Source: Gemmatimonadota bacterium
Lineage (GTDB): Bacteria; Gemmatimonadota; Gemmatimonadetes; Gemmatimonadales; GWC2-71-9
Assembly: GCA_039588295.1 (NCBI GenBank)
Contig: JBDHAB010000070.1
Coordinates: forward strand, 1-12,096
Length of the DNA stretch: 12,096 nt
Direction of reading: 5' to 3'
Position numbers and translations under genes: made by a program. Under the pieces are notes generated by a model that was not told the origin of the DNA, did not search any database, and saw only the letters and a program-made list of their open reading frames with translations. Below, in pieces: positions 403 through 12,096 of the stretch (within the stretch, counting starts at the first letter, position 1; every line of letters starts with the position of its first letter).

Positions 403-1347
403 CTACCCGAGCACCTTCGCCGGGTTTATCAGTCCCAATCCGGTGAGCGGGTCTCGCTCTAGCTCGCCTAGATCAGTTGCTCCGACGGTCAACGCCGTCC
501 GCAGCGCCGCTGGCTTGAGTGGCGGCTTGCCCTCCGCTTTCCGCAGCGCCAGCAGCAGCGCGGCCACGCCACATGCGAATGGGGCGGCCATCGATGTGCC
601 GCTCGTGACGGCCCATACATCGGGCGGAAAGGTCGAGAGGATCTCGCCGCCCGGTGCCACGAGATCGATCTCGCGTCCAACGGCGGTGTCGAGACCGGCT
701 TCGACGTTGCCATCGGCATCCCGCGTCACGTAACCGACTGCGATCGTCTCTGGATACGCGGCCGGAAAGGCCACGCTGCCCTCGATGGGCCCGGTGTTGC
801 CAGCGGCGCAGATGGTCGCGATGCCCGCGTCCACGGCTTCGACGATCGCTGTGCGGACCTTGGGCGTTTTGACTGCGCTCTGCAGGCTCAAGCAGATCAG
901 ATCTGCCTCCAGTTCGATGCACCACCGGATGGCGCCGGCCACGGCCACCTCGGTGATGGGCTCTCGCGGCCGTCGCAGCACTTTCGCATTGAGCAGGCTC
1001 ACCAACGGTGCGACGCCCGTGATTCCCTTTCCGTCCACACGGGCACCAATGATACCGGCCACATGTGTGCCGTGACCCACCTCGTCAGCGATGCCAGCTG
1101 GACTGCCGCTGAAGTCTTGGCTGTCGATCACCGCGTCGCCAAGATCCGGATGCGCCGTAGCCACGCCAGTATCGACCACGCCGACCAGCACGTCTCCCCC
1201 ACCGGTCAGATGCCAGAGATCCGACACCTCGAGGAACTCGAGCCCCCAATCGACCCGCTCGGGCTGCATCGAGATGTCGATCACGTCGAACGGCGGGACA
1301 GTGAAGGCCGGCCTCAGTACGCGTTTCCGCGGGCGTAGCGTGGCCAT
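403..1347 (-). CDS. S8 family subtilisin-like serine peptidase, no signal peptide or large pro-domain
   Basis: Catalytic motifs VGVVDTGV (Asp), GHGTHVAG (His), AAGN (oxyanion Asn) and SGTSMAAP (Ser). The ATG overlaps the upstream stop (TGATG). Confidence 0.95.
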   Translation of the reverse strand: MATLRPRKRVLRPAFTVPPFDVIDISMQPERVDWGLEFLEVSDLWHLTGGGDVLVGVVDTGVATAHPDLGDAVIDSQDFSGSPAGIADEVGHGTHVAGIIGARVDGKGITGVAPLVSLLNAKVLRRPREPITEVAVAGAIRWCIELEADLICLSLQSAVKTPKVRTAIVEAVDAGIATICAAGNTGPIEGSVAFPAAYPETIAVGYVTRDADGNVEAGLDTAVGREIDLVAPGGEILSTFPPDVWAVTSGTSMAAPFACGVAALLLALRKAEGKPPLKPAALRTALTVGATDLGELERDPLTGLGLINPAKVLG

Positions 1348-3206
1348 CAGAAGCGGAACAGGGTGAGGTCGACACCGATGAAGCCGACCACCCGCAGCGC
1401 ATTTCGCTCCACGGTTCCAGCATCGCCTTCCACTGCGCGCAGATTAGGGGCATACTCCACGCCAAACCCGATGGCCACCGGATAGCGTCCGGTTATTCCT
1501 AGCGTGACCCATACCCCCGGCGCAAAGATGTGTTGGAGTCCAAACTCGGGTTCGCTGCTGACGGCCAGCGTGTCCGTGGCCGTCTCCGCATCCAGACCGC
1601 CGAGCCGGAGACTCGCCAATGTACCGACGTTCAGCATCGACGCCATGATGCCGAGGGATGCGTCTCCCAACCCAAAGGACAGCTCGAGGCCCACCGGAAC
1701 GAACATTCCTGCAAACTCACCCTTGACGCTCATGTCCGGCACCACATCCTGCACCCACTCCACGCCACCCGCCACGCCCACGTAGCTGACCACCGAGACC
1801 CGGACGGCGCCACTTCGACGGCGCTCGCGGAATGAGCCCACGGGGTCCGCCCAAGCTTCCAGCGCGTGCCTCACGCCTTCGCTGCTGCTCGCATCGGCCA
1901 GTGCAGCCGCCAGGGCCACGACGCGCTTGAGTTTGACAAGTGCCTTCCCTGCGTCGCCCTCCTTTTCGGGGATGGCGCTTACGACCACGAGGAGCAGCTG
2001 CCCGTGGTCACGATCCTGGAGCATACGGAGCAGGCCGCGCGCCGTTGCCAACGCCCGTTCGGCACGGGGACGCACGTCGGGCGGGACTAGTGCTCCGGCG
2101 ATGTCGAGCGCCTCACTGACGGCCCGAAGCACATCGAACGATGTGGCATTGTTTCTCGATTGTTGCGCAAACGACTCGATACTCCTGATTCGCCTGTAGG
2201 CATTCAGGATGCGGTCGACCGTATCGTTCGCGGAGTCGACCAAGTTGCGGAGGCCATCGGCTTCGAGGTCGTAGAGCAAGATTGTCAGGAACACTCTGCG
2301 GGTGGTCTGATTCTCGAGCAGGCGCTCTATGGGTCCCGAGGCAACGTTGCCCACCCACTTCGCGAATTTTGGATGGGCACTGTGGGCGAGTTGTAGTGCC
2401 GACCGTTCGCGAGCCAGCATGCCGATGAGTCGAAAGGCCGTTCTGACATCGTCCTGGCCGAGCTGGTCACGGGACAGGTTTGCGAGTTTGGCGGCGCTCT
2501 CCTCGAAGGGGACCCCGCTCATCACGTCAGTGGCGCGTTGCGCGATGAGGGAAACTGCCTGCACTTCCCATGGTACGCCGCCCGACCAGAAGCTCAGGCC
2601 CGGGTCAGCGACGTTAACTGGCAATTTCCGGAGATCTTCCTCGCCCGCGACCCGCAGCGCCGGGATCAACGTGCGAAACGTGAGGTTGTCGGCGGCGCGG
2701 ACCATCGCGTGTAGGTTGGGAAACAAGGTCGCCAGATCGCTGTTGTTCTCGAACAGGCGGGCGAGGTCGCGGAACACGGACTGAACAACCTCATCCCGCG
2801 CTCGCTGCAGGAGAAAGTCAGTCAGGCCGCTGACGACGGTCGCGCCCAGCGGCCCTGTGCCGAGCCCCGGGGCGCTTGCCGTCTTGAGCGACGCTTCTTC
2901 CAGGCTCTGCTCGAGAGAATCTCGCACTATGGTATCGATTCCGTCATAGATGGATTGAACCGAGCTAGGGCTCAGTGGGAGGCTGCCGATTCGCGGAACC
3001 GCCTCAAGACGCACGCTATCGAGGATGGTGGCGATCTGGCGGGCCGGCGCCTCGGCGGCGCAGACGGGCCCAGTGGCACACCATCGGCTGATGACGAGGC
3101 TCTGGAACGTTCGGTAGGCGAGCGAGGAACTTGGCGTCGTCTGGCCCTGGGCGGCGACAGGCAATCCAGCGACTGCGAGCAGGAACACCATGATCAATCG
3201 TGGCAC
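1347..3206 (-). CDS. Large exported hypothetical protein: helical N-terminal region, beta-rich C-terminus ending in Phe (possibly outer membrane)
   Basis: 619-aa ORF with a GTG start after GGAGAG and a signal peptide (MPRLIMVFLLAVAGLPVAA|Q). The C-terminus has alternating hydrophobic, Gly-rich strands ending ...VGFIGVDLTLFRF. Confidence 0.8.
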   Translation of the reverse strand: MPRLIMVFLLAVAGLPVAAQGQTTPSSSLAYRTFQSLVISRWCATGPVCAAEAPARQIATILDSVRLEAVPRIGSLPLSPSSVQSIYDGIDTIVRDSLEQSLEEASLKTASAPGLGTGPLGATVVSGLTDFLLQRARDEVVQSVFRDLARLFENNSDLATLFPNLHAMVRAADNLTFRTLIPALRVAGEEDLRKLPVNVADPGLSFWSGGVPWEVQAVSLIAQRATDVMSGVPFEESAAKLANLSRDQLGQDDVRTAFRLIGMLARERSALQLAHSAHPKFAKWVGNVASGPIERLLENQTTRRVFLTILLYDLEADGLRNLVDSANDTVDRILNAYRRIRSIESFAQQSRNNATSFDVLRAVSEALDIAGALVPPDVRPRAERALATARGLLRMLQDRDHGQLLLVVVSAIPEKEGDAGKALVKLKRVVALAAALADASSSEGVRHALEAWADPVGSFRERRRSGAVRVSVVSYVGVAGGVEWVQDVVPDMSVKGEFAGMFVPVGLELSFGLGDASLGIMASMLNVGTLASLRLGGLDAETATDTLAVSSEPEFGLQHIFAPGVWVTLGITGRYPVAIGFGVEYAPNLRAVEGDAGTVERNALRVVGFIGVDLTLFRF

Positions 3207-3639
3207 GGGCCGTCACTCTCCAAATGGGACAGAACGGTCGGAGGAACGGACTGAGAGACTCAACCGCGCTTCGCGACGGAGGATCCTGTCGGTGCCACAG
3301 GCCGCAAGAGCCGCCAGCACCAACGGCGCGGAAACGGCAAGAGTACAGTGTTACATATGCTCACTCGCAGCCGTCCAAAGGACCTGTCATCAGCTGCACG
3401 CGACACGCTGGCTGGCGAGCGCCCGCAGGCCGGGGTGTGCTGCACGAGCTGCAGGTCCGGCTGACAGTGTCCATATGTTGCCTTTCAGCCTCACAGCGAA
3501 ACTGCGGCTCAACGGCACCTAGGGCAAGCACGACAAACAGACCGTTGTGATCCCCTTTTGGCCACCGGCAGGCATGGCTCGGAAGCTGAATGAATTAGAG
3601 GTGCATCCAACCCCGAGCGCTTCCTCGCTAGTCGGGGCT

Positions 3640-4222
3640 GTACCTTCCGATAAGCTTGAACTTGAGGCAGACACCCATGCGCACATCCCTCGGAACGATC
3701 CTCGCAGGCGTTTCCCTGGCGGCCACATCCGCGGCCGCCCAGGAATCCCCCTACACCCAGCACACTCAGCGCGAGATCAAGGCGCTCTCGGCCGAAGAGG
3801 TGGAGGGCTACCTGGCGGGAGAAGGAATGGGCATGGCGCTGGCGGCGGAATTGAACTCCTACCCCGGCCCCAAACACGTGCTGGAACTGGCCGACTCGCT
3901 GGAGCTGAGCGACGAGCAACGAGCCGAGACCCAGGCGGTGTTCGACCAGATGAAAGCCGAAGCAATTCGGCTCGGCCAGGAGATCGTGGAGCGGGAGCGG
4001 CGGCTCGACGGGTTGTTCGCCTCAGGAGCGATCACCGAGGAGACCCTCGAGGCGCTGGTGACCGAAATCGGCGTTCTCAACGGCGAGCTGCGCCACGCCC
4101 ACTTGAGAGCCCACCTGGCGGTGAAACGGCTGCTCTTGGCCGAGCAGGCGGCCCGGTACGACGCCTTGAGGGGGTACGGAGAAGGGCATCGGGGAGAGCA
4201 TGAGCACGGGGAGCACCGGTAG
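3640..4222 (+). repeat. Direct repeat copy 1 (leader plus gene); partner at 9787-10373
   Basis: Similarity starts at GTACCTTCCGA and ends at the stop codon. 156 of 181 aa are identical by manual alignment. Confidence 0.95.
3677..4222 (+). CDS. Spy/CpxP-like periplasmic helical protein with His-rich tail, copy 1
   Basis: ATG 3677 chosen by alignment with copy 2. Signal peptide ...SAAA|Q; LSDEQ and LLAEQ resemble LTxxQ motifs; GMGMALAAELNSYPGP block; tail HRGEHEHGEHR. Confidence 0.85.
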   Translation: MRTSLGTILAGVSLAATSAAAQESPYTQHTQREIKALSAEEVEGYLAGEGMGMALAAELNSYPGPKHVLELADSLELSDEQRAETQAVFDQMKAEAIRLGQEIVERERRLDGLFASGAITEETLEALVTEIGVLNGELRHAHLRAHLAVKRLLLAEQAARYDALRGYGEGHRGEHEHGEHR

Positions 4223-5400: not shown

Positions 5401-5690
5401 GCGGCGCGGCGCTAGATGTGCCGCCCCCTTCGAGATGCTCTATCCGTTTGATGGTGGCGCAGCCGGCCGGCGTGCTCGCCACACAAGCCGGTGTTGTTGA
5501 TCAATCTCGGATTGGCACTCCGTGGATAGCACGCTCGGCCATGCCGGCCGACTAAGCTGCCGCGTGCCCACCTGATTGAGGAAGGTGAGCTCGGTTGCCT
5601 GGACGGAACCGAGGTTCGATCCACATCCTTCATACATGACTATCATTCCCGCGCGCAGCTAACAGCATTGTTGCATAAGGAGACGAAGCG

Positions 5691-6381: not shown

Positions 6382-6410
6382 ACTTAACACGCGCATGGAT
6401 CTCGAGCGCG
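6382..6410 (+). other. Remnant left half of an attC-like site
   Basis: ACTTAAC fits RYYYAAC and is followed by ACGCGCATGGATCT. Positions 6385-6402 match 11963-11980 at 17 of 18 nt. No complementary right half was found. Confidence 0.55.
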
Positions 6411-7524: not shown

Positions 7525-7684
7525 CCCGAATATTCAGCTTGTGGTTGATAGCGACGTGGATCCCAAGGTTTATCAGGTGTTGCAGCACTACCATCGTGCC
7601 AACAGTATTGGCAGGCGCGGCCCGCGGACGAGGCCTCGCGGGTCATGGGCGAACCGTTGGACCAAGCGTAATCAAGGAGTGGCT

Positions 7685-8752
7685 GTGCAGTCTTTCAGGT
7701 TGCCGGCAGCACGGGTGGGTGGCGCCGTAGCCATGGTCGCAGTCGTCGCCGTCTCGTCCGCGGCCGCCCAGGATCTTCCCACGTGGAGCCTCGGCACCCG
7801 GGGCGTCCAGCTGGACGGTGGAGCCATGCCGTTCTATCGAGTTACCGGCGCGCAGTTCTTGCCGGACGGCTCGATCGCCGTGGCCGACGCCGGGAACGCG
7901 CGCGTCGCGGTCTACGCCCCCTCCGGGAACCTGCTTCGCTCCCTCGGCAGGGAAGGAGACGGCCCCGGTGAGTTCCGGTCGCTGAGCCACCTCTTCGTGT
8001 TCGGCGATACGATTGCCGTTTACGACCAGATCGCCTTGCGATTCACGATCTGGGATGCGATCGACGCCCGACCGCGATCGTTTCGGTATCTGACCTACGG
8101 CGTCGCACCGCCCACCGTGCAGGGGGCGTTTTCGTCCACGGAATACCTGCTGACATCGGTGGAGCGCACCCCGCGAGAGGCGCGCGGTCTGTTCATCGAT
8201 CACGCTGACCTCTTGCGGCACACGCTTGCCGAACCGGAGGCTCAGGTGCTCGGGCGCGGCCCCCACCGATACCTCTACTTTTTCGGGGAGCGCAGCGGGA
8301 CCACGACCTACCGCACACCGTTCTTCGGGGCGACCGCTTACGCCATCGCCGGGGGGACCATCGTTACCGTCCCACTGCATGCGGCACGGATGCGCTTGCT
8401 CGATCCGCGTGACGGACGTGAGGTTGCGGATCTCCAGCTTCCATTGGAGGAGCGAAAGTTCGACCGGCGGGAGATCACTCGGTATCGCGACGCGCTGCTG
8501 GAACGCGCGCATGACGCGGCAACGGCCAGCCGGATCCGCGACGCCTTCGACGGCATCGAGCCGCCAGCGACGGCTCCCACGGTGCGGGACCTGGTCGTCG
8601 TGGGGGAGTTGGTGTGGGTCGAGCGCTTCCCCAAGTTTGGGCAGTCACCGGTGACGTGGGTGATCGTCGATCCGGACGCCCGGCGCGCCATCGCGACAAT
8701 CGAGTTGCCGGCAGGGAGCCGGCCGATGAGTGGACGAGGTGAGTCCGTGCTC
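7685..8752 (+). pseudogene. Exported NHL/6-bladed beta-propeller-like protein, C-terminus cut by the IS110 remnant (frame reads through to 9124)
   Basis: AAGGAG at 7674-7679 precedes GTG 7685. Signal peptide ...SAAA|Q; NHL-like DGSIAVADAGNARVAVY...GREGDGPGEF. After GESVL the sequence is antisense IS110. Confidence 0.75.
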
Positions 8753-9012
8753 CGCGCGAAGTCGCGCACTTGGCGAGGATTCGCCACCACGATCGGCACC
8801 CGCGCCGCCGCGAGCGCTGCGACGACCGGCTGTTCAAACCCGCCCGTCGCCTCACACACCACGAGCACCGACCCGCGACCACCCAGGCGGCCCACGAGTT
8901 CGCTCACCCCGGCGTCATCATTCGCGACATGCCATGTCTCTCCGCTCGGCCGCACCGCCACATCCAGCACCGCCTTCGACACGTCGATCCCCACATACTG
9001 CGTCGCGCTCAT
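8745..9012 (-). pseudogene. Truncated IS110 DEDD recombinase (first 89 aa)
   Basis: YVGIDVSK, VCEATG and ANPRQVRDFARST are present. The expected KTD motif and the C-terminal serine domain are absent. Confidence 0.92.
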
Positions 9013-9030
9013 CGTGCCTCCCCGCGCTCG

Positions 9031-9180
9031 CTCGTCCCAACTCGACCTTGCGCCATGCGGGCTCTTCGGCCCCGATCAACTGTTCGAGTTCTTGAACGAG
9101 AATGACCGGCGATGTCCTGGCTAACGGACGGTCTCGAGGACCCTAGGCTGCACGGACTATCGCCCGCCGTAATCTGGTCA
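9031..9180 (-). ncRNA. Candidate IS110 bridge RNA (target-binding loop ~9108-9164, donor-binding loop ~9031-9100)
   Basis: Two stem / internal-loop / hairpin modules. First: stems 9108-9117 and 9154-9164, inner hairpin 9130-9142. Second: stems 9039-9045 and 9084-9090, extended by 9031-9035 and 9096-9100, inner hairpin 9059-9072. ACAGT and CAAGG occur as in the IS621 donor loop. Confidence 0.75.
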
Positions 9181-9216
9181 CAAGTTGGAGGCGAATCGAT
9201 ATCCAAGGCATCGAGT

Positions 9217-9669
9217 ATGACGCGTTGCGAGCTGATTGTCGAAACCTTCCCCAGTCGCTTCGCTGCGCGCGTCCGCGACCGTGAGTCACAGGTCTTGCTC
9301 GATGGTCTCAACGCATTCAACGCCAGCCACACCGGCGACGACTCCGTAGAGTTGCTCGGCATCTTCCTCCGAACCGATGATGGAAAGGTGGTGGGAGGTC
9401 TACTTGGGGAGATCTCGTGGGAGTGGCTGTACGTGAGCGTCTTGTGGGTTGCGGACGCGCACCGACGTGAGGGCTATGGCTCCCAGATCCTCCAGGCCGG
9501 AGAGGAAGAGGCCCGCAAGCGTGGGTGTCACTCGGTGCACCTCGAATCGCTGAGCTTTGGCGCAACGCAGTTCTATGAACGTCGGGGTTACGAGATTTTC
9601 GCGCAGCTGGACCACTACCCCGGCGAGCACAGCCGACTGTTCCTCAAGAAACAGCTCGTGCCGCTCTGA
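9217..9669 (+). CDS. GNAT family N-acetyltransferase
   Basis: LWVADAHRREGYGSQIL (acetyl-CoA motif A) and FYERRGY. The start was moved to ATG 9217 because 9112-9184 lies within the IS110 end. Confidence 0.92.
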   Translation: MTRCELIVETFPSRFAARVRDRESQVLLDGLNAFNASHTGDDSVELLGIFLRTDDGKVVGGLLGEISWEWLYVSVLWVADAHRREGYGSQILQAGEEEARKRGCHSVHLESLSFGATQFYERRGYEIFAQLDHYPGEHSRLFLKKQLVPL

Positions 9670-9726
9670 GAGGGCGATGCCAACGCCATTAAGAAGTACT
9701 CTGTCAAGTGAGCGCAGGTGTTCCTG

Positions 9727-9760
9727 AGCGGCGAGCATCGCTCGCCGCTTTGTTGTTTGT
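9727..9760 (+). terminator. Rho-independent terminator
   Basis: Perfect 10-bp stem AGCGGCGAGC/GCTCGCCGCT with a 3-nt loop, followed by TTGTTGTTTGT. Confidence 0.75.
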
Positions 9761-9786
9761 GGTTCTTGTATCCTGTCTTTTGCGCG

Positions 9787-10373
9787 GTACCTTCCGACGA
9801 GCTTGACCCTTAGGCAGGAACTCCATGCGCATCTCACTCGGAACCATCCTGACTGGCGTTTCCCTGATTGCCACCTCCGCGGCGGCCCAGGAATCCCCCT
9901 ACACTCAGCACACCGAGCGCGAGATCAAGGCGCTCTCGGCCGAAGAGGTGGAGGGCTACCTGGCGGGCAAGGGGATGGGGATGGCGCTGGCGGCGGAATT
10001 GAACTCCTACCCGGGCCCCAAACACGTGCTGGAACTGGCCGACTCGCTGAAGCTGAGCGACGAGCAACAGCTCCAGACCCGTGCGGTGTTCGACCGCATG
10101 AAAGCCCAAGCCACTCGGCTCGGCCAGGAGATCGTGGAGCGGGAGCGCTGGCTGGACGGGCTCTTTGCCTCAGGGGAGATCTCCGAGGAAGGGCTCGAGG
10201 CCCTGGTGACCGAAATCGGGCTCCTCACGGGCGAGCTGCGCTACCACCACCTGAGAGCCCACCTGGCGGTGAAACGGCTGCTCTTGGCCGAGCAGGCGGC
10301 CCGGTACGATGCCTTGAGGGGGTACGGGGACGGGCACGAGGGCGAGCACCGGCACGAGGAGCACCGGCCGTAG
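9787..10373 (+). repeat. Direct repeat copy 2 (leader plus gene); partner at 3640-4222
   Basis: Starts at GTACCTTCCGA and ends at the stop codon. Confidence 0.95.
9825..10373 (+). CDS. Spy/CpxP-like periplasmic helical protein with His-rich tail, copy 2
   Basis: Paralog of 3677-4222. AGGA precedes the ATG; tail HEGEHRHEEHRP. Confidence 0.85.
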   Translation: MRISLGTILTGVSLIATSAAAQESPYTQHTEREIKALSAEEVEGYLAGKGMGMALAAELNSYPGPKHVLELADSLKLSDEQQLQTRAVFDRMKAQATRLGQEIVERERWLDGLFASGEISEEGLEALVTEIGLLTGELRYHHLRAHLAVKRLLLAEQAARYDALRGYGDGHEGEHRHEEHRP

Positions 10374-11035: not shown

Positions 11036-11239
11036 GCCCGCTGGGATCGGCAGCGGCTTGTGCGGGTTTATGCATGTTAGGCTGCGAACCCGTCGCAGCA
11101 GATCGCACATGGCACGTGGGTGAGCAATCCAAAGCTCATGTGAAGACAGCACGTGTTGCAGGAGTCGTTGGGTCGGGTGATGTGCATATGCTGCGAAGAA
11201 CACGCTTGATATTGAGTTACACTGGTCAGTCCAATATGA

Positions 11240-11966
11240 GTTAGCTAGCCCAAAACCTGCGATCTCCGATGCCTCGAAAGAAGTCTCAGTCCACACCACC
11301 GCGACAAACACTACGAGCGCGCAAGGTCCTATCACAAGCTCGTGAGTCAACCCAGGGACTGCTCACTGCGTTGGATACAGTACGTCAGACTCGCAAAGCA
11401 ACTCGGGGGGCACTGACAGATGAGGAGCAGGACCTCCTCAGAGCTACACTCGTCTTTGCCGCCGCAGGTCTAGACTCCACTCTTAAGGAGCTCATACGCG
11501 GATCGATCCGTTCGCTCGCGGCTGCCGACCCTGACGTCCAGGCCGAGCTAGAGATCTTCGTTCAACGCCAGCTCCGCGGCGACGTCGACGAGCCTGACAC
11601 CGCGGCTGGCCACAAATTCCTCTCGAAAGTACTTGTCGCCTCATCTCCTCAGGAACGCCTGATCGATGAGTACGTCACGGAGTTGACTGGAACGAGCCTG
11701 CAGTCAGCTCAGCAGCTCATGAAGGCGACGAAGGCTCTGGGCCTGGATCCGAAGCAGATGGGCATCGATCCCAAGAAGCTGCAGACTATCTTCGGCGTCA
11801 GAAACAAGATCATTCACGAACTTGACGTGAATCTTGCCAAGACTTCCGCGCGGCGCAGCCGCAACAGCCGCAGGCGCGACGACATGGAGGGCTGGTCCAC
11901 GCGCCTTCTTGAGATAGCCAAGGCTCTGGTTGCAGGGGTCGAAGGGAAACTTAAGGGCTAGCTAAC
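11240..11966 (+). mobile_element. Integron-type gene cassette carrying the HEPN gene
   Basis: GTTAGCTAGCCC (11240-11251) is the exact reverse complement of GGGCTAGCTAAC (11955-11966). The stop codon lies inside the right repeat, and the gene has a short SD-less leader. Confidence 0.75.
11269..11961 (+). CDS. HEPN-domain protein (putative RNase)
   Basis: Rx4H motif RNKIIH (nt 11800-11817); N-terminal helix LLRATLVFAAAGLDSTLKELI; all-helical character. Confidence 0.75.
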   Translation: MPRKKSQSTPPRQTLRARKVLSQARESTQGLLTALDTVRQTRKATRGALTDEEQDLLRATLVFAAAGLDSTLKELIRGSIRSLAAADPDVQAELEIFVQRQLRGDVDEPDTAAGHKFLSKVLVASSPQERLIDEYVTELTGTSLQSAQQLMKATKALGLDPKQMGIDPKKLQTIFGVRNKIIHELDVNLAKTSARRSRNSRRRDDMEGWSTRLLEIAKALVAGVEGKLKG

Positions 11967-11986
11967 ACGCGCATGGACCTGCCGAG
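11960..11986 (+). other. Left half of an attC site, interrupted by an IS
   Basis: AGCTAAC inverse core overlaps the stop codon and is followed by ACGCGCATGGACCTGCCG, which is shared with 6385-6402. Confidence 0.65.
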
Positions 11987-12096
11987 GGAACCTCCCTCAC
12001 TTTGGTAGACACTTTCACCTAACCGGGGGGAGGTGTCGATGGCACGCGCAGGCCCGCGGAAAGTCCGGGCGTACAGCCGCGAGTTCAAGCTGACGG
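11987..12096 (+). mobile_element. IS3-family element, left end (partial)
   Basis: IRL-like GGAACCTCCCTCACTTTGGTAGACAC. It lacks the canonical TG, so the boundary is approximate. A GGAGG RBS and the OrfA start follow. Confidence 0.7.
12039..12096 (+). CDS. IS3-family transposase OrfA, 5' partial
   Basis: MARAGPRKVRAYSREFKLT... carries the YSxEFK motif typical of HTH_Tnp_1. Only 19 codons are visible. Confidence 0.75.
   Translation, partial: MARAGPRKVRAYSREFKLT

What the first reader, a model, noticed from the sequence alone, without database searches (positions are those of the whole stretch)
9108..9164. IS110 bridge RNA whose target guides spell an integron attC core site
Seen (minus strand): stem GGCGATAGTCC, guide GTGCAGCCT (9153-9145), hairpin GGTC-CTCGA-GACC, guide CCGTTAG (9127-9121), closing stem GGACATCGCC. 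Known: in IS621 bridge RNA the left guide equals target-left plus the CT core, and the right guide is the reverse complement of core plus target-right. Inference: the target is GTGCAGC-CT-AACGG, containing GCCTAAC/GTTAGGC, a perfect RYYYAAC/GTTRRRY integron core. The attC-targeting elements I know of are IS1111-type, with the guide RNA downstream of the transposase. This one has a 5' non-coding end, so it may be a separate RNA-guided lineage parasitising cassette arrays.
Basis: partly seen in the sequence, partly recalled or inferred. Interest (0 to 1): 0.9.

Follow-up and report, generated by a model that had tools for sequence, protein, structure and literature searches.

The report
RNA-guided transposon aimed at integron sites
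This is the guide RNA of a broken copy of a jumping gene whose intact relatives mostly land at one exact spot in the recombination sites of integron gene cassettes, apparently without destroying those sites; it is a second RNA-guided lineage aimed at integrons, distinct from the one described so far.

Summary
Confirmed. 9108-9164 (minus strand) is the target-binding loop of an IS621-like bridge RNA in the 5' end of a dead IS110-group remnant (89-aa transposase stub). The left end runs to a CT core at 9207-9206, which is the AG of an attC R' box (GTT-AG-GC) in front of the GNAT cassette.

The right guide matches the right flank in 41 of 44. Left-guide position 5 tracks the flank in 21 versus 1 independent pairs. 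24 of 36 evaluable empty sites pass an attC rule (control 3 of 899). One element sits in an intI-linked array.

The transposases form one clade among 5'-NCR IS110 elements, 24-29% identical to this genome's IS1111-type attC element, which uses the R'' side. Insertion leaves the attC hairpin. In 36 of 41 transposases the target completes the stop codon.

Limits: the left guide is loose (this copy 3 of 7), RNA and activity are not shown, and ISfinder and two key papers were unreadable. Earlier scan notes saw a similar element on other DNA. New variant of a known kind.

The parts
9206..9207 (-). CT core at the left junction; equals the AG of an attC R' box (GTT-AG-GC) on the + strand
   Evidence: Same junction 38-48 nt (mostly 43) upstream of the loop in 130 of 136 rows; nearest copy diverges from the window exactly here
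9013..9205 (-). IS110 left end (5' non-coding region) encoding the bridge RNA
   Evidence: Alignment A1; family core-to-ATG length 196-201 nt in 43 rows
9201..9205 (-). Right-donor sequence, TGGAT here against TGTAT in relatives (probably a decay change)
   Evidence: Only 2 of 130 junctions read TGGAT
9182..9187 (-). Putative -10 box, 17 nt from a -35-like hexamer that exists only at the circle junction; CAACTT here, TAACTT in the nearest copy
   Evidence: Inference; TAAAGT or TAAACT in 61 of 130, many others begin with C or G
9106..9166 (-). Target-binding loop domain (the finding)
9145..9153 (-). Left target guide (7 nt + CT): reads the first bases of the downstream cassette
   Evidence: Covariation with flanks at positions 5-7
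9121..9127 (-). Right target guide (7 nt): reads core + AAC of R' + 2 bases of the L'-R' spacer
   Evidence: 41 of 44 right flanks match 5 of 5
9040..9089 (-). Donor-binding loop domain: left donor guide 9083-9077, hairpin 9072-9059, right donor guide 9056-9047
   Evidence: Left donor guide equals the right end of its own element in 43 of 44 (1 not parsed), three variants covarying; stem swaps
8749..9012 (-). Transposase stub (N-terminal ~88 aa; has the first D and the E, lacks DxxD and the catalytic Ser); 3' part and right end deleted
   Evidence: PF01548 E 8e-11 over profile positions 1-86 of 155
9208..9684 (+). GNAT gene cassette (ATG 9217, stop 9669). Its start after the core mirrors its own inverse core at 9675-9684, one T missing
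9685..9758 (-). End remnant of an IS1111-type element sitting next to the cassette's R'' box
   Evidence: 76% identity to ends in G000 C3 and C83; 5 such ends in G000
7679..8748 (+). Beta-propeller-like gene, 3'-truncated and fused to the transposase stub (deletion junction near 8750)
   Evidence: DUF5128 weak hit below cut-off; the junction as a deletion is inferred from the sequence

Best explanation
The stretch is the target-binding loop of a bispecific bridge RNA in an IS110-group (IS621-like, 5' non-coding end) insertion sequence of about 1.15 kb. The lineage is programmed against the R' box of integron attC sites. Shown by sequence: element ends, CT core, guide-flank covariation, attC nature of most empty sites, antisense orientation, insertion at the AG of GTT-AG-RY. 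Inferred from IS621: the element circularises, the junction completes a promoter, the RNA binds the DEDD/Ser recombinase, the target loop pairs with both strands of the linear double-stranded 14-bp site and the donor loop with the circle junction, and strands are exchanged at CT. The right guide supplies most of the specificity. The left guide is a loose consensus of cassette starts (GCNGC), so most attC sites of an array qualify. Inferred consequence: R'', both L boxes and the GTT crossover stay intact and the element lies inside the start of the downstream cassette, so IntI can probably still use the site. The window's copy was later killed by a deletion.
For: Right guide vs right flank 41 of 44 (permutation mean 29.4, 0 of 10000; four guide variants each found with their own flank). 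Left guide position 5: 74 of 112 vs 32.3; position 7: 107 of 112 vs 96.2 (both 0 of 5000). Independent pairs on a guide-masked tree: 21 own vs 1 swapped, 5 ties, of 27 (p 1e-5). Empty sites: 42 of 43 read GTTAG, 38 of 43 GTTRRRY. 24 of 36 evaluable pass an attC rule vs 3 of 899 host GTTAG sites and 10 of 1800 shuffles. Other attC in the loci: 58 on the cassette strand vs 2 opposite. G004:C80 has intI followed by 9 attC-pattern hits with an element in one R'. ATG-led ORF within 40 nt of the junction in 32 of 68 vs 306 of 2000 random places. Host genome has an intI over cut-off and two sister left ends at cassette starts. Same donor-right CTTGTAT as IS621. Catalytic motifs in 42-43 of 44 full proteins.
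Against: No RNA or activity data: 0 contigs laid from the one RNA run tried. The window's own left flank matches the guide at 3 of 7 and its right flank is lost. Left-guide positions 1-3 do not covary; position 2 gives 7 vs 5 pairs, and positions 4 and 7 have only 2 informative pairs each. 12 of 36 sites fail the attC rule, including all 4 evaluable sites of the GCGTTAG-guide subclade. The L'-R' spacer limit was widened from 8 to 9 after seeing three near misses (21 of 43 under the strict rule). intI was hit in only 1 of the short loci. Rows are kin, and metagenome repeats can be misjoined.
Confidence: 0.9

Rival explanations
1. Same element and target, but the recombinase needs the folded single-stranded attC hairpin (structure-guided homing, as recalled for group IIC-attC introns), with the guides only fixing the position.
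For: Two thirds of sites are full attC hairpins (24 of 36) although the left guide is loose.
Against: 11 of the 12 sites that fail the attC rule still carry CT-AAC with guide-matched flanks. IS621-type loops pair both strands of duplex DNA (PMC11208160, passages). Uninterrupted attC already match the linear consensus: 54 of 68 AACGG, 52 of 68 GCNGY.
Confidence: 0.12
2. It is a member of the known IS1111-attC group whose non-coding region has moved upstream.
For: Some IS1111-family elements have an upstream NCR (PMC11187229 section 6). Named IS1111-attC proteins were not obtained, so they are missing from the tree.
Against: Proteins 315-321 aa, 42-49% identical to ISEc32 but 24-29% to the host's 3'-NCR attC element L002; long separating branch with support 99. 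Inverted repeat only 3-5 bp in 46 of 46 against 7-17 bp for IS1111. IS621-type donor and loop order.
Confidence: 0.03
3. The guide's likeness to attC is chance, or the targets are REP-like palindromes unrelated to integrons.
For: A CT-core loop spells RYYYAAC by chance about 1 time in 256, which is not rare over a genome scan. IS621 relatives commonly target REPs.
Against: The empty sites have R'', 5-nt spacer, L boxes with an extra base and R'. They recur every ~0.6 kb between single genes, all on one strand, next to intI in G004 and G059.
Confidence: 0.02

Closest known systems
IS621 and ISCro4 bridge recombinases (Durrant 2024 PMC11208160; Hiraizumi 2024 PMC11208158; PDB 8wt6, 9t56)
   Same: 5' bridge RNA with target loop then donor loop, CT core, identical donor-right start, short terminal inverted repeat, 315-330-aa DEDD/Ser protein (E 3e-35 and 5e-37). 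Handshake positions fit the post-exchange pattern: C after the right target guide in 129 of 136, G after the right donor guide in 14 of 15.
   Different: Target is attC R', not REP. Natural right guide is 7 nt rather than 4. The right end overlaps the ORF, whose stop is completed by the target.
IS1111-attC group (ISKpn4, ISPst6, ISPa21, ISPa25) and their seekRNAs (PMC11187229; Tetu & Holmes 2008 and Post & Hall 2009 seen only as citations)
   Same: RNA-guided DEDD elements that home to attC sites.
   Different: Their guide RNA lies downstream of tnp, and they have long subterminal repeats. The IS1111-type elements of this host genome sit next to R'' and split the hairpin (5 ends), whereas this lineage enters R' and leaves the hairpin. 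The exact site of the named elements was not checked here.
Group IIC-attC introns (PMC3001079, abstract and passages)
   Same: Mobile elements that specialise on attC sites in cassette arrays, in opposite orientation to the cassettes (PMC9229058 passage).
   Different: Retroelements with a reverse transcriptase; no bridge RNA.
ISEc32 and other 5'-NCR IS110-group elements in plasmids (L155, L156, L158, L159)
   Same: Nearest neighbours in the tree (42-60% identity); three of the four show the same CT-TGT/TAT left junction region or donor loop by eye.
   Different: Different target loops; their flanks, read by eye only, show no attC core.

Membership tests
IS110 family, IS110 group (IS621/Piv branch) | DEDD RuvC-fold + Ser domain transposase of about 315-330 aa | tested here: met
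   Relative L066 passes NF033542 (213 bits vs cut-off 140); motifs in 42-43 of 44. The window's stub alone is below cut-off (54.7 bits).
IS110 family, IS110 group (IS621/Piv branch) | Long non-coding end upstream of tnp, short right end | tested here: met
   Left end 196-201 nt in 43 rows; right core lies at the ORF's stop in 36 of 41
IS110 family, IS110 group (IS621/Piv branch) | Bridge RNA with target and donor loops complementary to target and donor around a shared core | tested here: met
   Covariation (sequence level only)
IS110 family, IS110 group (IS621/Piv branch) | RNA is expressed, bound by the protein and needed for recombination; circular intermediate | not testable with these tools
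   No RNA contigs laid; no circle junction sought in raw reads
IS1111-attC group | Guide RNA region downstream of tnp | tested here: not met
   Upstream in all parsed rows
IS1111-attC group | Subterminal inverted repeats of 7-17 bp | tested here: not met
   3 bp in 15 and 5 bp in 31 of 46 (one register tested)
IS1111-attC group | Transposase in the IS1111 clade | tested here: inconclusive
   Far from two 3'-NCR elements (24-31%), but the named members were not available
IS1111-attC group | Inserts in attC sites | tested here: met
   24 of 36, at R'
Integron attC site (the target) | R''(RYYYAAC)-5 nt-L''...L'-spacer-R'(GTTRRRY), extra-helical bases on the R''-L'' arm, 57-142 nt | tested here: met
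   21 of 43 strict, 24 of 36 with a 9-nt spacer allowed; lengths 79-145 nt. The first extra base is C on the bottom strand, not the usual G; G-to-C cost only 2.7-fold in VCR (PMC2727003 passage).
Integron attC site (the target) | In arrays linked to an integron integrase | tested here: met
   G004:C80 (intI in pieces, below cut-off) and G059:C7 (intI over cut-off)
Integron attC site (the target) | Recombined by IntI | not testable with these tools
   Needs an assay

The most novel reading that the evidence does not exclude
A second, independently evolved RNA-guided integron specialist that is built into the cassette system instead of breaking it. It inserts just downstream of the IntI crossover, so the attC stays usable and the element can travel as cargo at the head of the next cassette. 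It also uses the invariant AA of the attC core as its own stop codon. In the excised circle the ribosome would run about 66 codons through the bridge-RNA region to a TGA overlapping the transposase start, giving a translational switch between the circular and the integrated state.
Probability: 0.3. Interest if true: 0.78.

Novelty: new variant of a known kind. Interest (0 to 1): 0.6.

Why it matters
The attC-targeting insertion sequences in the papers I could read are all IS1111-type. This shows convergent RNA-guided targeting of attC from the IS621 side of the family, at the opposite end of the site, and both kinds flank the same cassette in this window. It makes an open question testable: PMC11616780 notes that little evidence exists on what attC-targeting IS do to integron function, and here one lineage spares the hairpin while the other splits it. 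The family also gives a natural set of more than 100 guide/target pairs with a 7-nt right guide and a degenerate left guide, useful for bridge-recombinase specificity rules. The window's copy itself is only a fossil.

Tried and rejected
Rfam scan: 0 matches. Folding z-score: uninformative.

A left boundary at 9184 was considered and dropped after L015. An exact 14-mer target in the host: 0 sites within 1 mismatch, 16 at 2 mismatches.

Sequencing runs: 24 listed, none with half of the words, best share 0.35. Four were laid; no contig spans the element and the RNA run gave 0. This is no evidence either way.

Hitch-hiking test among full elements: 0 pairs share a downstream cassette with different upstream cassettes. 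One pair (L042/L102, elements 99.9% identical) shares the upstream cassette with different downstream ones. That goes against simple hitch-hiking, or is a misjoin or an independent insertion.

Own-inverse-core test: 21 of 56 vs 10 of 56 on the wrong strand, weak. The donor-loop handshake count was discarded because the script often caught the wrong GCAAG. The outermost donor-domain helix did not align. Half-site HMMs found one clear attC half in the window (11962-11984, E 0.0025) and weak ones.

Plasmid searches: no listed near-full-length relative above 55% identity (3001 records matched, the best 40 and 60 spread rows seen). Named IS1111-attC elements were not recovered. The careful tree did not finish; the quick tree is used and L110 is a frameshifted long branch. 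No structure or complex prediction was run.

Full report
Observation. They lie upstream of a minus-strand ORF starting at 9012 whose first ~88 residues match the IS110 DEDD domain and then run into the antisense of a truncated beta-propeller-like gene. The window is a whole 12-kb contig of a 64% GC genome. The nearest titled relatives are Gemmatimonadota. Folding alone is not above shuffles (z -0.08) and Rfam has nothing.

True left end. A 93%-identical copy (L015) fixes the junction at the CT core 9207-9206, followed by TGGAT where 128 of 130 junctions have TGTAT. On the + strand the flank reads AG-GCATCG-AGT-ATG into the GNAT gene, and the mirror of that start lies after the gene at 9675-9684 with one T missing. 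A start mirrored by an inverse core after the gene is what a cassette looks like (established integron knowledge, recalled). Two sister left ends in the same genome (C57, C65) have the same right guide, a left guide ending GT, and flanks ending GT. C96 begins with a right end followed by AACGG. The genome has an integron integrase over cut-off.

Family. With 5 loci this gives 136 rows: 130 with the left junction, 47 with a right end, 46 with both (54 had at least 1300 nt downstream). Elements are about 1145-1166 bp (one 1091) with proteins of 315-321 aa (two outliers, 297 and 336).

Guides. Right guide vs first five bases of the right flank: 41 of 44 exact, permutation mean 29.4. The variants predicting AACGG, AACGC, AACAG and AACTA each occur with their own flank; the three misses are listed. 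For the left guide, 112 rows were used after dropping 15 duplicates and 9 without junction, flank or a 9-nt guide. Positions 5, 6 and 7 exceed all 5000 permutations (74, 108, 107 of 112), position 4 is marginal (4 of 5000), and positions 1-3 show nothing. On a tree with guides masked (100 rows), independent pairs differing at position 5 favour the own guide 21 to 1 with 5 ties; position 2 gives 7 to 5; positions 4 and 7 give 2 to 0 each. The left donor guide equals the element's own right end in 43 of 44. Guide A at position 5, the window's variant, is the least faithful (4 of 19).

Targets. After dropping 3 duplicates, 42 of 43 rebuilt empty sites read GTTAG on the cassette strand. 21 of 43 pass a strict attC rule. 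Leaving out 7 rows with under 150 nt of flank and allowing a 9-nt spacer, 24 of 36 pass, against 3 of 899 host GTTAG sites and 10 of 1800 shuffles. The rule is my own, built from the box layout in PMC2727003 and PMC5027507 (passages), with spacer lengths recalled; IntegronFinder was not available. Of the 12 failures, some are damaged attC by eye, and the 4 evaluable sites of the GCGTTAG subclade are not attC by this rule. 28 of 60 long loci hold further attC on the cassette strand (58 vs 2 opposite). In G004:C80 a split intI is followed by nine attC-pattern hits, one holding the element in R'. G059 has 46 such hits, two elements and an intI-linked array. Free attC sites fit the guide consensus as well as occupied ones, so the RNA is tuned to the host's attC class, not to one cassette.

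Mechanism. Steps beyond sequence are inferred from IS621 (PMC11208160 passages and supplements; PMC11208158 passages). After insertion R' reads GTTAG-CA in 24 of 24 passing sites. R'', the L boxes and GTT are untouched, and bottom-strand folding weakens by about 3 kcal/mol in 21 and not at all in 3. That the filled sites still pass my rule follows from the rule and is not independent evidence. The only conserved attC bases are AAC/GTT and the crossover is between C and A of the bottom strand, so the element falls inside the downstream cassette. Movement with a cassette was not seen, and one pair points the other way. Loose left matching fits the half-match activity reported for IS621 (bioRxiv 10.64898/2026.08.31.748434, passages).

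Side result. In 36 of 41 distinct full proteins the stop codon is the core's T plus the target's AA. In the circle the frame would continue 65-68 codons in 35 of 36. That frame of the left end is stop-free in 69 of 77 distinct left ends, against 0 and 3 of 77 for the other plus frames. The length is a multiple of three in 68 of 77, and the frame ends at a TGA overlapping the start codon in 67 of 77. Among 8 representatives under 85% identity, 6 are stop-free against 1.1 expected. Kinship and RNA constraints could produce part of this, so it is a lead.

Relations. The window's stub nests in one clade of 43 rows (support 98-99, quick tree, 54 rows). The clade lies among 5'-NCR elements such as ISEc32 and far from the host's 3'-NCR element L002 (24-29%). 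Best solved relatives are ISCro4 and IS621. The L002-type ends sit next to R'' at 5 places in the host, one right behind the same GNAT cassette.

Literature. Searches and the supplements of PMC11187229 (one file unreadable) and PMC11208160 (one file unreadable, two cut) found no description of an IS110-group element targeting attC. PMC11187229 (abstract, sections 6 and 13, passages), PMC11616780, PMC11089894, PMC12444791 and PMC9229058 (passages) tie attC targeting to the IS1111 group. The 'IS110' in the abstract of PMC11616780 is ISPa21, IS1111 group. PMC5034289 (passages) was not relevant, and PMC3001079 was seen as abstract and passages. Close relatives and attC-like targets do stand, unlabelled, in the supplementary alignments of PMC11208160. 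Tetu & Holmes 2008 was not held; Post & Hall 2009, ISfinder and most subscription papers were not seen, so prior mention cannot be excluded. Earlier scan notes report what may be the same class on other DNA (e1-7778605, e1-3238359); I did not check those loci.

Verdict. Real bridge-RNA target loop of a dead copy. The lineage targets attC R' (0.9). New variant of a known kind; interest 0.6.

Noticed in passing
window 9685-9758 (-): End of an IS1111-type element directly after the GNAT cassette's R''; the cassette in G000:C57 is likewise bracketed by both element types.
   Followed up: partly
window 11191-11244 (+): 81% similar to the attI-like stretch between intI and the first cassette in G000:C3; followed by a HEPN-like gene (weak PF18735 hit) and an attC left half at 11962-11984.
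   Followed up: partly
window ~11987-12096: Looks like the start of an IS3-family element (label recalled, not tested) interrupting that attC at the contig end.
   Followed up: no
window 3637-4222 and 9784-10373 (+): Two copies of a 182-188-aa periplasmic-type gene, 89% identical over 300 nt, with similar upstream DNA; the second has a weak LTXXQ hit.
   Followed up: no
G000:C3 1-1721; G004:C80: The cassette array lies downstream of intI in the same orientation (inverted-integrase layout, term recalled).
   Followed up: partly
window 9009-9206 (-) and family left ends: Stop-free frame through the bridge-RNA region ending at the TGA that overlaps the transposase ATG; the transposase stop is completed by the target.
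   Followed up: partly
window 403-3206 (-): Subtilase gene next to a 619-aa protein with no Pfam match.
   Followed up: no
L042 and L102: Near-identical elements in the same upstream attC but with different downstream cassettes and one guide difference.
   Followed up: partly
window 5549-5565 (-), 6385-6397 (+), ~7595-7666 (+): Weak or decayed attC-like halves between genes (first two, third by eye), suggesting a decayed cassette cluster.
   Followed up: partly
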